Origin: Candidatus Nanohaloarchaea archaeon
GTDB lineage: Archaea; Nanohalarchaeota; Nanosalinia; Nanosalinales; Nanosalinaceae
Length of the DNA stretch: 64,000 nucleotides
Direction: 5' to 3'
Assembly: GCA_042218075.1 (NCBI GenBank)
Contig: JBDGRK010000018.1
Span: 32,001-96,000, forward strand
The translations under genes were made by a program, and so were the position numbers. Positions 25,792 to 29,328 of this stretch are shown one piece after another. The first letter of the stretch is position 1. Every line of letters begins with the position of its first letter. The notes below the pieces were generated by a model. That model did no database searches and was not told where the DNA came from. It was given only the letters and a program-made list of their open reading frames with translations.

Positions 25792-26238
25792 GTGGGAAAA
25801 AGATTCGAAAATGCCGCTGCCGATGGCATCGAGAGTGTCGAAAACCCGGAGATAGAAGGAGTAAACGCAAATATAAGCTCTGGTTATAATATTCTGGATG
25901 CTTATATTTCGATCTCCACTTTACTCAATGAGTTTAATTCTCCGACAATGGTAGTTGAGGCTAAAAATAATACATGCTACGAAGCGGGAGATAGAGCAAT
26001 CGCAGAAATAAAGGGATATGAAGATTGTGGATTGTTCAATCTTATTTTCAAAAATTCAGAGGAACTTCCAGGTCTTTACAGTGGTGAAGAGCCTGAAGCA
26101 GTGGTTGAAGATCGAGATGGAGATATACAAAGCGGCCAGGTAGTATATTACCAGATTTTACCATATGAAATGGTTGAAAATGATCCAGTTCAAATCACAG
26201 GCGAAAATCCAATAGTCCAGAGATTTTTCTCGGATTAG
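25792..26238 (+). CDS. Hypothetical protein
   Basis: AT-rich acidic ORF filling the gap; start uncertain. Confidence 0.45.
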   Translation: MGKRFENAAADGIESVENPEIEGVNANISSGYNILDAYISISTLLNEFNSPTMVVEAKNNTCYEAGDRAIAEIKGYEDCGLFNLIFKNSEELPGLYSGEEPEAVVEDRDGDIQSGQVVYYQILPYEMVENDPVQITGENPIVQRFFSD

Positions 26239-26780
26239 GGAGTTACCCTTTCCACCTCGTAATAAGTCACCTGCCTCTCCGCGTCGACCACCGCCCAGAG
26301 CATCGTTGCTCGAATATTGTGTGCGAGCCTCACCGCCCTTGACATCTCTTGGAAGCTGGTGTTGTAATCCTCAGGTACTGCATGCACAATCCACTTGGTA
26401 TGCTCGTGGTCTTCCTTCGGCCCGTCCTTGTAAGGATTGACTCCCCTTGGATAGACCCTGAAGTGGGCTCCGAACTTGAAACCTGTCTTCACAATAAAAC
26501 CTCTCTCCCTGAGATCAGAGTAGGCAGCGTACTTGTGGTCGAACTCGTCATCCTCGCTCGAAAAACGGTGGTAAATCTCCTCCCTCTCCAGTTTTTCACC
26601 ATCCTCAACTATCTCAAGCTCCTCCCTATCGACGAGGTGGAGCGCTTCAACGAACGAAAGCTCCAGGTATTCCTCATCGTCAATAAACTTCCCGTAGTAA
26701 ACCTCATCGTGTATCTTCTCCGCTTCTTCCTCGTCCCAGACCTTGACCTTGGTGTCAGAAATTTTGCCTTCTGCAGTCAT
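26235..26780 (-). CDS. endA: tRNA splicing endonuclease (single catalytic unit, 181 aa)
   Basis: LELSFVEALHL, YSDLRERGFIVKTGFKFGAHFRVY; TATA-like TTTAAAA about 25 nt upstream of ATG 26780. Confidence 0.93.
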   Translation of the reverse strand: MTAEGKISDTKVKVWDEEEAEKIHDEVYYGKFIDDEEYLELSFVEALHLVDREELEIVEDGEKLEREEIYHRFSSEDDEFDHKYAAYSDLRERGFIVKTGFKFGAHFRVYPRGVNPYKDGPKEDHEHTKWIVHAVPEDYNTSFQEMSRAVRLAHNIRATMLWAVVDAERQVTYYEVERVTP

Positions 26781-26811
26781 AGCAGAAAAAACACAGTGAA
26801 CTTTTAAATTG

Positions 26812-27509
26812 TCAGAACTCTCCGAGCCCGCTCTGCTCAGACTCATCGATCAGGTCCTGTGAGGTACTCCAGCTCAACCTTGCCTCCGGCGGGAGTTCGC
26901 CTTTCTCTTTCAGGTATTTCTTCAGGAATTCTCTCGTCGGCTTGTCATGCGGGTAGCCCGACTTGAAGTCGTAGCCGTACTTTTTCTGAAGTTTTTCTAC
27001 ATGCTCCTCCCTTGCCGACTTTGCCACTATGGAAGCTGCTGATACTATATCATATTCTTCATCTGCCCCGTGCTCCGCCACAAACTTCATATCCTTGAAC
27101 TTAACCGGCAACTGGTCTTTCAGCTTCCGGATGAATCGGTCTCCATCCGGCTCCGGCAGATCCACAAATACTTCATCCGCATCCGACCTCCTTATGACGT
27201 CAACAAAACCTTTAACCTCGATCTCGTTCAGGTTCATCACCTGGCTGAGCTCATCTATCTCCGAGGCCTCTATCTCTTTCAGGAAAGTCCTTCCAAGACC
27301 ATCAAGCTGCTCTCTCAGTCTTTCCCTTTTCGAATCAGAAAGCTTCTTCGAATCTTTAACTCCAAGTTCGTCCAGTTCGTCCATTCGGGCCTCATCAACC
27401 ATGAAGCCTCCAATAAACATCGAGCCGATGACGGGGCCTTTAGGCCAAACAAGACCGGAGATCCCGTTTATCTGCCTGCCTCGTCAACGCCCATGATCTT
27501 TTTAGTCAC
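26812..27509 (-). CDS. rnhB: Ribonuclease HII, interrupted by a 32-nt intron
   Basis: Exon 1 27509-27472 plus exon 2 27439-26812 gives 221 aa MTKKIMGVDEAGRGPVIGSM...VKDSKKLS...VSAASIVAK...SGYPHD. Confidence 0.9.
27440..27471 (-). other. Bulge-helix-bulge intron in rnhB mRNA
   Basis: AGGC-AG^A...GCCT-AA^A: 4-bp helix, two 3-nt bulges, inner stem TAAACGGGA/TCTTGTTTG; removal restores frame and DEAGRGP. Confidence 0.85.
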
Positions 27510-28561
27510 AAAACGATCACCCTTTTATCAGTCTCAACAGTTTCCCATTCGTGATTCTGTTTTTTTATAAGCCCTAGTTCCTCCAGACGATATAGGTTTT
27601 TGTACGCAGATTTCTTTCTGACAGAGAAATATTCAGCTATTTCACTCACTTTAAGCGGATTATCTCTAAGGAGATCGAGGTAATCTGACTTAACTTCAGA
27701 AATGATTATCGCATTTTGATCTTCTCTTATCCAGTATGTAGATCCCTCAGTTTTGTAGTTCATCGCTTTTCCTTCTTCCTTTAGAAGCATTAAGACATCG
27801 CATAACCGGGCCTGAGATCTATCAAATTTTTCAGCCAACTCTCTGGTTTGCCATGGCGTATCCAGAAGTTCGAGGACTTCTTCCTTTAATTGACCTTTCT
27901 GATAGTGTGTCTCCTGAAAGCTCTCATAAATTCTCCAAAACTTATTTCTCTTTCTTAGATGTAGTTTAACAAGATCTAAATCAGCAAATATGTCCCAGTT
28001 TCTCTTCCTAGTTATTACGTAGGATCTGCTCTCGGCTTTGAAATTATAGTCCAATTCAAAATGATCTAACATAGTTTCTAAGAACTGGTTCTGCGCTCCT
28101 TGAGATATCCTTAATCTCCGACTATTTCTGGCTCCTTCATAGATGCTTCCCTCACCAGCAAAGAAACCCTGAAGAATATATTGATACAGTTCAGAATCAG
28201 ATTTTCCCTTTTCAACCGTATTCTTCCACTTTTTAACAAAATCAGTTGAAGCAAGCCGCAGCAGATAATATGTCTGAGTAGCTCTCTCATCAAAGTAAAA
28301 TTTAGTTTTAGCTTTTTCCAGAGAGTTGTAATCAGATCCTTCATTAGGTCTATAGACATACAGTCTGAATCTATCAAGACCGGAAAAATCCCGAATAGTT
28401 CTATAGAATAGCTCAACTAGTTCAAAGCAATTATTTGTGAAAGTAACCTCTCTTTCAGTTTTTGTATCTCCTTCAGCTAACCGAAGTCCTATACATCTAG
28501 CTGAATCTTTTTTCATGCCTGAAAATTCTTTAAACAGCTTAAAAAGACTATTTAATATCAT
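27506..28561 (-). mobile_element. Free-standing LAGLIDADG-like gene with C-terminal wHTH domains
   Basis: CIGLRLAEGD and ILQGFFAGEGSI motifs; AT-rich; TGA overlaps rnhB GTG. Confidence 0.75.
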
Positions 28562-28702
28562 TCCACTAGTTCCGTGAGAAAAACTACTGTCTCAGAATAA
28601 TGGCCTAACAAGTTCGAAAATGATAGGAAGATGTCTTAGCTTTTAGTTCGGCCAAGTGATAGTTTAAAAGAATAAACACCGACTCTATTTTTTACACTCT
28701 AA

Positions 28703-28777
28703 AGCGGGGTGGAGCAGCCAGGAGTGCTCGTCGGGCTCATAACCCGGAGGTCCCAGGTTCAAATCCTGGCCCCGCTA
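28703..28777 (+). tRNA. Initiator tRNA-Met(CAT)
   Basis: A1-T72 pair, GGG/CCC anticodon stem, CTCATAA loop. Confidence 0.95.
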
Positions 28778-28788
28778 TTTCAATATAT

Positions 28789-29328
28789 TCATTTTACTTT
28801 AGGCTTGTTGCGGGCAATCTCGTAGAGTTTTGAATACCTGTCAATTAAAGAAACATTCAAATAATAAGATTCATCACAGTTCGGCCCTGTAATATTTGTA
28901 TTAATATTTAGAGATTCCATCATAAGTTTAACATCCTTTAAACCGAGTTTATTAACAGATTTAATCCTCATTCTATTGTATTTCTGTTCGAAATGTCCTT
29001 CATCTCTAATAAAGGCTCTTAACCATTAGTATTTCTTTTCTTCAGGTAAATCTAGAATTTGCTCCGATATTCTCCAACAATTCGACAAAAATCTTTCAAA
29101 TTTCTCCTGAATCTGTTTAACTATTCCTACAGATTTCACCTTTACTTCATTCCGGTGTCGATACATATCAACACCGTACATTTCCTTCATATCTTTCCTG
29201 AACTCTCTCAGATTTGTCTCATCTTTATTTGTATATATTACAATTGCTCTTCTTTTTCTATCATCTTCATTAGTTTTGTAGAATGAAATATAACCGTCTC
29301 CACAAAGCCTTGCGTGTATTCCTACCAT
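28789..29328 (-). pseudogene. LAGLIDADG endonuclease pseudogene
   Basis: IHARLCGDGYI, in-frame TAA at 29026-29028, then WLRAFIRDEGHF continuing in frame into the 28789-28971 ORF. Confidence 0.7.

What the first reader, a model, noticed from the sequence alone, without database searches (positions are those of the whole stretch)
27440..27471. BHB intron in the catalytic motif of a protein-coding gene (rnhB)
Seen: 32 nt containing an immediate in-frame TAA split DEAGR|GP. The junctions fold as a 4-bp helix AGGC/GCCT with bulges AGA and AAA, an inner stem and an exon-exon stem with one bulged G and one mismatch. Cutting after the second base of each bulge restores AGA-GGC-CCC and a 221-aa protein with GGTGA SD and GTG start. 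Established: archaeal mRNA introns are rare, cbf5 being the well-studied case. Inference: RNase HII synthesis depends on EndA, encoded by the next gene; standard annotation would give a truncated protein.
Basis: partly seen in the sequence, partly recalled or inferred. Interest (0 to 1): 0.88.

Follow-up and report, generated by a model that had tools for sequence, protein, structure and literature searches.

The report
Mobile mini-intron splitting archaeal RNase HII
A 32-base intron of the type that archaea normally cut out of tRNAs interrupts the catalytic motif of the RNase HII gene; the same interruption recurs in many distant archaea and often sits next to a DNA-cutting "homing" gene, so it may show how such introns get into protein genes.

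Summary
On the minus strand, 32 nt (27440-27471) split rnhB between DEAGR and GP. They fold as a 3-4-3 bulge-helix-bulge (BHB). Removing them gives an open 221-aa RNase HII.

No RNA run was listed.
- 28 of 28 readable relatives are intronless.
- Same-site inserts of 21-34 nt occur in 88 verified rnhB loci, 78 of them distinct. The records are titled Nanohaloarchaea, Woesearchaeota, Hadarchaeota, Asgard and others.
- The 4-bp central helix covaries with synonymous exon positions: 295 of 312 pairs form, and 0 of 2000 shuffles reach that.
- All 9 inner-stem pairs show compensatory changes.
- None of the 78 can be read through.
- EndA and RtcB are present.

New finding: the gene directly upstream (27506-28561) is an I-DmoI-like LAGLIDADG protein with C-terminal winged helices. 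In a sampling that started from this protein, it lies directly upstream of rnhB in 14 of 14 loci, and 13 of those carry the insert. None of 28 intronless relatives has it.

I read this as a free-standing homing endonuclease travelling with a BHB intron. That part is inference.

The parts
27472..27509 (-). rnhB exon 1: GTG start, 12 codons plus 2 bases. It carries the catalytic D-E of DEAGRGP.
   Evidence: The N-terminus matches relatives' M-x-K-(V/I)-L-G-(I/V)-DEAGRGP.
27440..27471 (-). 32-nt BHB intron, in the canonical cut register after base 2 of each 3-nt bulge
   Evidence: Fold. Same-site homologues and covariation. Unique in the genome.
26812..27439 (-). rnhB exon 2, including the stop
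   Evidence: Pfam RNase_HII, E 8.6e-37, from profile position 15. The spliced frame is open.
27426..27489 (-). Whole BHB fold: exon-exon helix, 4-bp central helix, two bulges and an 11-bp intron hairpin
   Evidence: MFE. Exon 2 third codon positions are biased towards bases that pair with exon 1 in intron-bearing alleles.
27517..27521 (-). GGTGA Shine-Dalgarno-like motif 7 nt before the GTG. It lies inside the end of the upstream ORF.
   Evidence: Read from the sequence. Its function is inferred.
27506..28561 (-). Free-standing LAGLIDADG (I-DmoI-like) gene with C-terminal tandem winged helices. It is 351 aa from the first ATG, or 336 aa from the ATG at 28516 that aligns with homologues' starts. 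Its TGA overlaps the rnhB GTG.
   Evidence: Pfam TrmB HTH 6.3e-9; LAGLIDADG_3 below cut-off. Both motif glutamates are invariant. AF2 pLDDT 88.5. Best Foldseek hits are I-DmoI. Linkage to the intron.
26235..26846 (-). endA, the tRNA-splicing endonuclease. It is a single alpha-type unit and the only copy found in the genome. It overlaps the end of rnhB.
   Evidence: Pfam N-terminal and catalytic domains. Single hit in the genome. Aligns full-length with chain 1a79.
28662..28669 (-). TTTTAAAC box, a likely archaeal promoter element. It now lies upstream of the LAGLIDADG gene.
   Evidence: The same motif lies some 50-75 nt upstream of rnhB in many intronless relatives. Its function is inferred.
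28703..28777 (+). tRNA-Met, divergent neighbour. In two intronless relatives it lies directly upstream of rnhB.

Best explanation
The 32 nt are a genuine bulge-helix-bulge intron in the rnhB pre-mRNA.

Layer 1, the intron (about 0.85). The transcript folds so that the last exon bases AGGC pair with the last intron bases GCCU. Two 3-nt bulges flank this helix, an 11-bp intron hairpin lies on one side, and a helix between the two exons lies on the other. The cell's single alpha-type EndA, encoded by the next gene, cuts after the second base of each bulge. RtcB joins the exons and restores AG|A GGC. Only then can a 221-aa RNase HII with its catalytic D-E be made. Unspliced mRNA gives a 13-residue peptide. 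The structure, the enzymes and the comparative constraints are shown. The cleavage and the ligation are inferred.

Layer 2, how it got there (about 0.55). The intron belongs to a family that occupies this one site in rnhB of many archaea. In small-genome (DPANN-type) lineages, including this one, it is linked to a free-standing I-DmoI-like LAGLIDADG gene inserted between the promoter and rnhB. I infer that this enzyme cuts intronless rnhB DNA at the conserved DEAGR/GP-coding site. The intron would protect the carrier's own copy, and break repair would copy gene and intron together. This is the pattern called collaborative homing in phages. Lineages that lost the endonuclease would keep the intron as a relic.
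For: Structure and frame.

Machinery:
- EndA and RtcB are present.
- tRNA genes of the same genome carry 3-4-3 BHBs at ARAGORN's intron borders: Lys 74 nt, Met 76, Trp 170.

Need for the gene: no RNase HI was found with PF00075 in this 92%-complete genome, and the rnhB protein query found only this one copy.

Family at the same site:
- At least 6 of 70 genomes of the phylum carry it.
- 26 of the 120 stretches returned by the metagenome scan are such rnhB loci.
- 59 of 65 genome-contig hits are verified.
- In all, 88 verified loci and 78 distinct sequences.

Constraint on the RNA structure:
- Central helix: 295 of 312 pairs form. Shuffled mean is 232, sd 5, and 0 of 2000 shuffles reach the observed value.
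- In the 36 distinct 30-nt introns, 90.7% of cells pair, against 79.8% when shuffled (0 of 500) and 31-46% when partners are slid. 11 of 20 pairs change on both sides, including 9 of 9 inner pairs.
- Inner hairpins: median z = -4.1.
- Unspliced reading: 75 of 78 have an in-frame stop, 3 are frameshifted and 0 are open.
- Intron lengths fall in all three classes modulo 3.
- 79 of 82 loci have an upstream in-frame start. 76 of 81 spliced frames have 170-260 codons.

Layer 2:
- Fold and motifs of the upstream protein.
- It is single-copy in the 3 of 5 other genomes tested that carry it.
- Phylum: 5 strong hits, all directly upstream of intron-bearing rnhB. One has an in-frame TAG and one is in fragments.
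- 0 of 28 intronless loci have it.
- Sampling that started from the protein, in another phylum: 13 of 401 genomes plus one more, 14 of 14 directly upstream of rnhB, 13 of 14 with the insert.
- The one exception has AAG GGT (DEAGKGP) exactly at the site.
- The family is rare: 47 proteins in 5.8 billion.
Against: - No RNA was seen: no spliced read, no circular intron.
- MFE folding of the short segments gives the strict BHB in only 31 of 78 cases.
- 17 of 78 sequences have one mismatch in the central helix.
- In this window the 3' bulge is 3 nt only if one G is left bulged.
- Alpha4-type enzymes are said to be strict about the motif (PMC5829648, abstract and passages).

Against layer 2:
- Within the phylum the endonuclease diverges about as much as RNase HII does (63 vs 65%, 56 vs 59%, 42 vs 48% identity to the window's proteins). 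That fits old vertical descent with many losses as well as it fits transfer.
- Sliding-window identity gave no clear co-conversion tract.
- None of the 25 loci from Asgard-titled records has the gene; 20 of them have at least 1 kb of upstream sequence.
- No cleavage site is known.
- The pattern scans fixed most exon letters, so exon conservation cannot be counted as evidence.
Confidence: 0.8

Rival explanations
1. The intron is real and spliced, but it is ancient and vertically inherited with many precise losses. The upstream LAGLIDADG protein would not be its vehicle. It could be a maturase-like RNA-binding helper or a regulator of the operon that also holds rnhB and endA.
For: - Divergence of the protein tracks that of RNase HII inside the phylum.
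- Foldseek also lists the bI3 LAGLIDADG maturase, and for the C-terminus the SelB winged helices that bind an mRNA hairpin.
- Sources name the family as HTH protein or regulator.
- Its stop overlaps the rnhB start, and in one locus it runs in frame into exon 1.
Against: - Both LAGLIDADG glutamates are invariant in 9 sequences from several phyla.
- Copies with a stop or in fragments exist while the intron stays.
- The intron persists without the gene in many lineages, so no helper is needed.
- Between phyla the protein is more alike (36-46%) than RNase HII (30-38%).
- Vertical descent needs losses in nearly every genus: 64 of 70 genomes show neither by my searches.
Confidence: 0.25
2. The insert is not removed. 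rnhB would be a decaying pseudogene, or a 202-aa protein would be made from the internal ATG.
For: - No RNA evidence.
- An ATG opens a 202-aa ORF.
- 5 of 81 homologous loci have odd spliced lengths.
Against: - The 202-aa form lacks the D-E of the DEAGRGP motif (profile from position 15). That these residues are catalytic is recalled knowledge of archaeal RNase HII.
- Exon 1 keeps its start and frame in 79 of 82 loci.
- The helices covary.
- No other RNase H was found.
Confidence: 0.04
3. Ribosomes hop over the 32 nt, as in translational bypassing of phage T4 gene 60: a stop after the take-off codon followed by a hairpin.
For: A stop directly follows AGA and a stable hairpin comes next.
Against: - No matching take-off and landing codons would keep DEAGRGP.
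- In most homologues the stop is not adjacent.
- The covariation is between exon bases and the intron's last four bases, in exact 3-4-3 geometry. Bypassing does not require that.
Confidence: 0.03
4. Assembly or sequencing artefact.
For: The genome is a 40-contig assembly. The run that bridges both junctions may be its own source.
Against: - A second study's run holds the insert unchanged. A diverged strain holds it with two substitutions that both keep stem pairs.
- Five other genomes of the phylum and dozens elsewhere carry homologous inserts.
Confidence: 0.01

Closest known systems
cbf5 pre-mRNA intron of Crenarchaeota (Desulfurococcales, Sulfolobales)
   Same: [quoted passage not shown] Its distribution is patchy, with gains and losses (PMC2738675: abstract and passages read).
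   Different: - Another gene, and lineages outside the Crenarchaeota.
- The site is in the catalytic motif 38 nt from the start codon.
- In this organism the enzyme is a single alpha unit, not the (alpha-beta)2 type.
- It is linked to a homing-endonuclease-like gene.
- Splicing of cbf5 was shown experimentally. Here it was not.
Archaeal rRNA BHB introns that encode LAGLIDADG endonucleases (I-DmoI of Desulfurococcus mobilis 23S rRNA)
   Same: A BHB intron combined with a monomeric two-motif LAGLIDADG enzyme. I-DmoI is the best structural match of the upstream protein.
   Different: - There the endonuclease ORF lies inside a long intron of an rRNA gene (recalled).
- Here the intron is 32 nt with no ORF, the gene stands free upstream, it carries extra winged-helix domains, and the host gene encodes a protein.
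Collaborative homing: free-standing F-CphI next to the intron-bearing psbA of cyanophage S-PM2. T4 mobE with the I-TevIII intron is a related case.
   Same: A free-standing endonuclease gene lies beside a gene whose intron interrupts the enzyme's target. The intron prevents self-cleavage and the enzyme gives the intron mobility (PMC6083498, Background passage read; PMC2790892, listing and abstract start only).
   Different: - Those are group I self-splicing introns in phages, with Endo VII or HNH enzymes.
- Here it is a protein-spliced BHB intron in cellular archaea with a LAGLIDADG enzyme.
- Cleavage specificity is untested here.
BHB in the 5' region of the Haloferax volcanii HVO_1309 mRNA
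   Same: A euryarchaeal-type EndA acts on an mRNA BHB in vivo and in vitro (PMC7714728, passages read).
   Different: From the passages I read, that case is described as cleavage of an mRNA substrate. I did not see it described as an intron within a reading frame.

Membership tests
Archaeal BHB (bulge-helix-bulge) intron | Two 3-nt bulges on opposite strands, separated by a 4-bp helix | tested here: met
   AGGC/GCCU with an AGA bulge. The 3' bulge is AAA if one G is left bulged, and AAAG in the MFE. Across the family all four central pairs form in 61 of 78 sequences.
Archaeal BHB (bulge-helix-bulge) intron | Flanking helices on both sides (hBHBh') | tested here: met
   An 11-bp inner stem, and an exon-exon helix of 8 pairs with one mismatch and one bulged base. 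Inner stems: 62 of 78 have z < -2. The outer helix is 91% paired in 36 sequences.
Archaeal BHB (bulge-helix-bulge) intron | Cutting at the canonical bulge positions gives a functional product | tested here: met
   An open 221-aa frame with DEAGRGP restored. In the 8 of 78 with bulge AGT, only this register restores Arg.
Archaeal BHB (bulge-helix-bulge) intron | Splicing endonuclease and RtcB-type ligase encoded by the organism | tested here: met
Archaeal BHB (bulge-helix-bulge) intron | Spliced RNA, or cleavage by EndA, observed | not testable with these tools
   No RNA run was listed. There is no enzyme assay.
LAGLIDADG homing endonuclease (upstream gene) | Two LAGLIDADG helices with conserved acidic residues | tested here: met
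   E30 and E137 are invariant in 9 sequences.
LAGLIDADG homing endonuclease (upstream gene) | Match to a curated family model | tested here: not met
   Pfam LAGLIDADG_3 scores 16.9 bits against a cut-off of 22.5, E 0.0078. Some homologues carry PF14528 in precomputed hits.
LAGLIDADG homing endonuclease (upstream gene) | LAGLIDADG fold | tested here: met
   AF2 model pLDDT 88.5. The top Foldseek matches are I-DmoI chains, E about 1e-5, with TM normalised by target 0.50-0.60.
LAGLIDADG homing endonuclease (upstream gene) | Site-specific cleavage of the allele that lacks the element | not testable with these tools
   Inferred only from linkage.
LAGLIDADG homing endonuclease (upstream gene) | Selfish-element pattern: sporadic presence, one fixed site, decayed copies | tested here: met
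   5 of 70 and 13 of 401 genomes carry it, always upstream of rnhB. Copies with a TAG or TGA, or in fragments, occur.
RNase HII (Pfam PF01351) | Full-length match including the N-terminal DEAGRGP | tested here: met
   Exon 2 alone matches profile positions 15-198. The spliced N-terminus aligns with 28 relatives.

The most novel reading that the evidence does not exclude
Archaea have their own version of collaborative homing. A free-standing I-DmoI-like LAGLIDADG endonuclease targets the invariant DEAGR/GP-coding DNA of rnhB. A 21-34-nt BHB mini-intron, spliced by the tRNA machinery, both shields the carrier's gene and rides along. This would be the first observed route by which BHB introns enter and spread among protein-coding genes. 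The intron-only alleles in records titled Asgard and Hadarchaeota would be relics of past invasions.
Probability: 0.5. Interest if true: 0.93.

Novelty: new variant of a known kind. Interest (0 to 1): 0.9.

Why it matters
Status in print:
- In the papers I could read, only cbf5 is cited as an mRNA that carries the BHB motif (PMC7714728, PMC2738675).
- Nine full-text searches found no paper that links RNase HII with a BHB intron.
- Subscription journals and supplementary files were not searchable.

What changes if the reading holds:
- A second protein-gene intron family exists. It is present across records titled DPANN-type, Hadarchaeota, Bathyarchaeia and Asgard, so EndA/RtcB splicing of mRNA would be a recurrent part of archaeal gene expression, not a crenarchaeal oddity.
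- Gene callers would be truncating or splitting an essential enzyme in many genomes.
- The linkage to a homing-type endonuclease gives a concrete, testable mechanism for the origin and spread of such introns. It would also explain why they sit in invariant catalytic motifs.
- The minimal 21-34-nt natural substrates, with their covariation map, are useful for defining what different EndA types accept.

Tried and rejected
RNA evidence. The look-up of sequencing runs listed no RNA holder, so expression and splicing could not be examined. Read laying used DNA contigs only. In X2 and X3 no single listed record bridges the 3' junction with 31 or more bases on both sides.

A source for the intron. 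blastn-short of the 32 nt against the whole genome found only the intron itself. Rfam found only three tRNAs in the window.

Genome-wide search for further mRNA introns.
- A loose BHB and ORF-rescue scan gave 31,430 hits, of which 3,418 passed. This was uninformative.
- A strict scan gave 593 hits (665 in the reversed genome) and 14 ORF-rescue candidates, with rnhB listed first.
- The other 13 candidates are unverified. By reading, at least one (C14, minus strand) is just the start of the next gene and one (C16) cannot form its stem.

MFE conformity. Only 31 of 78 short segments fold into the strict BHB as the MFE. I rely on pair counts instead.

Co-conversion. Sliding-window identity of rnhB between carriers and their congeners showed no clear tract. 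The only hint is G038 against G034: 73% in the first 60 nt, 83% overall.

Exon third-position bias compares different clades, so codon usage may contribute.

The Asgard sample gave 31 of 301 genomes with a pattern match. About 27 look like the intron by eye and 4 do not. I did not verify the protein context.

Record titles may be wrong. A genome whose record is titled Methanosarcinales was drawn as part of the same phylum as a genome whose record is titled Woesearchaeota.

Supplementary files of papers were not requested. They may hold predicted intron lists that I could not see.
Full report
WHAT IS IN THE WINDOW

rnhB lies on the minus strand. A GTG at 27509 is preceded by GGTGA and opens 12 codons that end in GVDEAG plus the first two bases of an Arg codon. 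Then come 32 nt (27471-27440) that place TAA directly after AGA. The frame resumes with GPVIGSMF... down to 26812.

Without the 32 nt the gene is 666 nt, giving 221 aa with no internal stop. With them, translation ends after 13 codons. The 202-aa ORF that a gene caller would report matches Pfam RNase_HII only from profile position 15 of 199.

The next gene downstream (26235-26846) has both tRNA-intron-endonuclease domains. It is the only such gene in the 1.10-Mb, 92%-complete genome. It aligns over its full length with chain 1a79. RtcB is present on another contig. No RNase HI was found.

THE FOLD

- a 4-bp helix AGGC/GCCU;
- a 3-nt AGA bulge;
- an 11-bp intron hairpin with four G-U pairs;
- an exon-exon helix with one mismatch.

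The MFE draws the 3' bulge as AAAG. AAA plus one bulged G is the equivalent register. Energy alone is weak evidence: z = -2.65, and the antisense strand scores about the same. Geometry is stronger evidence. Strict BHBs occur at chance level in this genome (593 hits against 665 in the reversed control), which makes about 6e-6 for one given site and length.

IS IT REAL DNA?

A run from a second study holds the insert and its 5' junction with no difference. Another run holds a diverged copy with 14 differences in 116 bases and no gaps. Its two listed substitutions inside the intron turn G-U into A-U and A-U into G-U, so both keep the stem. The same run also holds an intronless relative that departs exactly at 27439. 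The 3' junction is bridged with long flanks only in the run that may be the source of this DNA.

RELATIVES

All 28 relatives whose rnhB 5' end could be read have the motif uninterrupted. That includes the four of the same genus.

A DNA search of the family, two exon-anchored patterns over all 70 genomes of the phylum, and a search with the upstream protein then found five more carriers, in five genera of four families. Their inserts are 33, 32, 30, 33 and 29 nt at the identical site. Their hairpins share almost no sequence but all pair. Where the exon reads GGGC the intron ends GCCC.

THE WIDER FAMILY

The same pattern was run on the public collections.
- Species genomes: a tighter pattern gave 65 stretches. 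60 come from archaeal records and 59 have verified RNase HII context. The 5 bacterial stretches are chance hits.
- By record title: 25 Asgard, 8 Hadarchaeota, 7 Woesearchaeota, 5 "Methanosarcinales" (at least one of which the tool places in the same phylum as a Woesearchaeota-titled genome), 3 Nanohaloarchaea, 2 Bathyarchaeia, 7 unclassified, and one each of Diapherotrites, Micrarchaeota and Norongarragalinales.
- In a sample of 301 genomes of the Asgard phylum, 31 matched a looser pattern. About 27 look genuine by eye, but their context was not verified.
- The state is therefore widespread but in the minority.

CONSTRAINT

After collapsing duplicates there are 78 distinct sequences with introns of 21-34 nt.
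- The four bases before the 5' bulge include the free third positions of the Ala and Gly codons. They pair with the four intron bases before the 3' bulge in 295 of 312 cases. All four pairs form in 61 of 78 sequences.
- Re-dealing the intron tetramers among sequences gives a mean of 232 with sd 5. None of 2000 shuffles reaches 295.
- Position 0 shows U-A 36, G-C 15, A-U 12, C-G 3, G-U 2. Position 3 shows U-G 29, C-G 18, U-A 15, G-C 11, A-U 4.
- For the 36 distinct 30-nt introns, which align without gaps, the full BHB structure pairs 90.7% of cells. Shuffled it is 79.8 +/- 0.7% (0 of 500). With partners slid by 1-3 columns it is 31-46%.
- 11 of 20 pairs change on both sides: all 9 pairs of the inner stem and 2 of the 4 central pairs.
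- Inner hairpins are far more stable than shuffles: median z = -4.1, and 62 of 78 are below -2.
- None of the 78 inserts can be translated through: 75 have an in-frame stop and 3 are frameshifted. Lengths fall in all three classes modulo 3.
- 79 of 82 loci keep an in-frame start upstream. 76 of 81 spliced frames have 170-260 codons.
- In 8 of the 78, the 5' bulge reads AGT. Only a cut after its second base, joined to the last bulge base A, restores the Arg codon.
- The first three codons of exon 2 prefer third-position pyrimidines that pair with exon 1: 63, 68 and 62 of 77, against 15, 11 and 9 of 28 in intronless nanohaloarchaeal alleles. The clades differ, so this is only supportive.

Against all this, MFE prediction on the short segments reproduces a strict BHB in only 31 of 78. 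17 of 78 have one central mismatch.

THE UPSTREAM GENE

The ORF 27506-28561 ends in a TGA that overlaps the rnhB GTG. Pfam sees a TrmB-type HTH and a sub-threshold LAGLIDADG_3 match.

Homologues lie directly upstream of intron-bearing rnhB in four other carriers of the phylum. One has an in-frame TAG and one is in fragments. They also lie there in a dozen distant loci, but in none of the 28 intronless relatives' loci that reach upstream of rnhB. A sixth carrier has the intron but no detectable copy in the 927 nt available upstream.

Nine sequences align with 54% mean column identity. Both LAGLIDADG glutamates (E30, E137) are invariant. The AlphaFold model (pLDDT 88.5) matches I-DmoI best, the endonuclease of an archaeal rRNA intron. 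Then come the engineered E-DreI, the bI3 maturase and PI-SceI. The C-terminal third matches the SelB winged helices.

The family is rare: 47 proteins in 5.8 billion. They are named hypothetical, HTH or regulator, and their labelled sources are all small-genome (DPANN-type) archaea. The gene is single-copy where it was found.

To avoid circularity I sampled by the protein. In 401 genomes of another phylum 13 have it. With one more genome this makes 14 loci. All 14 have it directly upstream of rnhB, and 13 carry the insert at the site. Twelve of those have three or four central pairs by my reading, and one is relaxed. The single exception has an intact endonuclease gene next to an intronless rnhB whose site reads AAG GGT (DEAGKGP).

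In two intronless relatives tRNA-Met lies directly upstream of rnhB. In the window the 1-kb gene lies between them, behind the TTTTAAAC box that precedes rnhB elsewhere.

READING

Layer 1. This is a BHB intron spliced by EndA and RtcB, and RNase HII cannot be made without that splicing. I put it at about 0.85. What is missing is RNA.

Layer 2. The intron and the free-standing LAGLIDADG gene form one mobile unit. This is analogous to collaborative homing of F-CphI with the psbA intron in cyanophages (PMC6083498, Background passage). The only DNA nearby that is conserved across phyla is the DEAGR/GP-coding site that the intron interrupts. I put this at about 0.55.

For layer 2:
- the near-perfect linkage;
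- the fixed location;
- the sporadic distribution;
- the decayed copies;
- the invariant catalytic residues;
- the altered site in the one intronless neighbour;
- higher similarity of the endonuclease than of RNase HII between phyla (36-46% against 30-38%).

Against layer 2:
- parallel divergence within the phylum;
- no visible co-conversion tract;
- the absence of the gene from the 25 loci of Asgard-titled records;
- no biochemical data.

A maturase or regulator role is the main rival for the upstream protein.

LITERATURE

Nine full-text searches were run.
- No paper holds both "ribonuclease HII" and "bulge-helix-bulge".
- No listed paper contains rnhB together with the intron terms.
- PMC2738675 (abstract and passages) states that no archaeal pre-mRNA splicing had been confirmed outside cbf5.
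- PMC7714728 (passages) speaks of the motif in "one mRNA" and adds one Haloferax mRNA substrate.
- PMC5829648 (abstract and passages) gives the EndA types and reports alpha4 enzymes with an extra loop in DPANN lineages and in Hadesarchaea.
- Subscription journals and supplements were not searchable, so "not in print" is limited to this library.

Noticed in passing
L168:6891-7940 (+): In one record titled Woesearchaeota the LAGLIDADG ORF has no stop before rnhB. It runs in frame through exon 1 (...VIVGVDEAG) into the intron. Splicing would then encode an endonuclease-RNase HII fusion.
   Followed up: no
L247 (G405:C4), about 2514-2570: The only locus with an intact LAGLIDADG gene next to an intronless rnhB. 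The site reads AAG GGT (DEAGKGP) instead of AGA GGN, which could be a cleavage-resistant variant.
   Followed up: partly
window 28789-29328 (-): Two small ORFs beyond tRNA-Met. The one at 29026-29328 contains an 'ARLCGDGYISF' stretch that resembles a LAGLIDADG motif. It has no Pfam hit. It may be a remnant of another homing-endonuclease gene.
   Followed up: no
G000 contigs C13, C14, C16, C23, C33, C36 (coordinates): Thirteen further places where a strict BHB-like motif would fuse reading frames. By reading, at least two are false. The rest were not checked against homologues.
   Followed up: partly
G000, whole genome: ARAGORN finds only 23 tRNA genes. Twelve of the candidates I examined have predicted introns of 12-226 nt, and several of those have canonical 3-4-3 BHBs at position 37/38. 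The tRNA set looks heavily interrupted or incompletely detected.
   Followed up: partly
L249 (G325:C9), just upstream of GTTGATGAAGCAGG: Exon 1 of this carrier has no ATG, GTG or TTG in frame after the stop of the endonuclease gene. Initiation may be unusual, or the copy may be decaying (my reading of the printed stretch).
   Followed up: no
L254 (G332:C21): An insert at the rnhB site with a relaxed motif: a central A/A mismatch, a longer 3' bulge and an AAT 5' bulge. It lies next to an endonuclease gene with no stops.
   Followed up: no
window 26812-26846: rnhB and endA overlap by 35 nt. EndA follows rnhB in 22 of 29 relatives' loci, all within the window's own family, intron or not.
   Followed up: yes
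L196 / G072 and other 'Methanosarcinales'-titled records: Genomes of about 1.1 Mb titled 'uncultured Methanosarcinales' carry the endonuclease and the intron. One of them was drawn by the tool as a member of the same phylum as a Woesearchaeota-titled genome, so the titles look unreliable.
   Followed up: no
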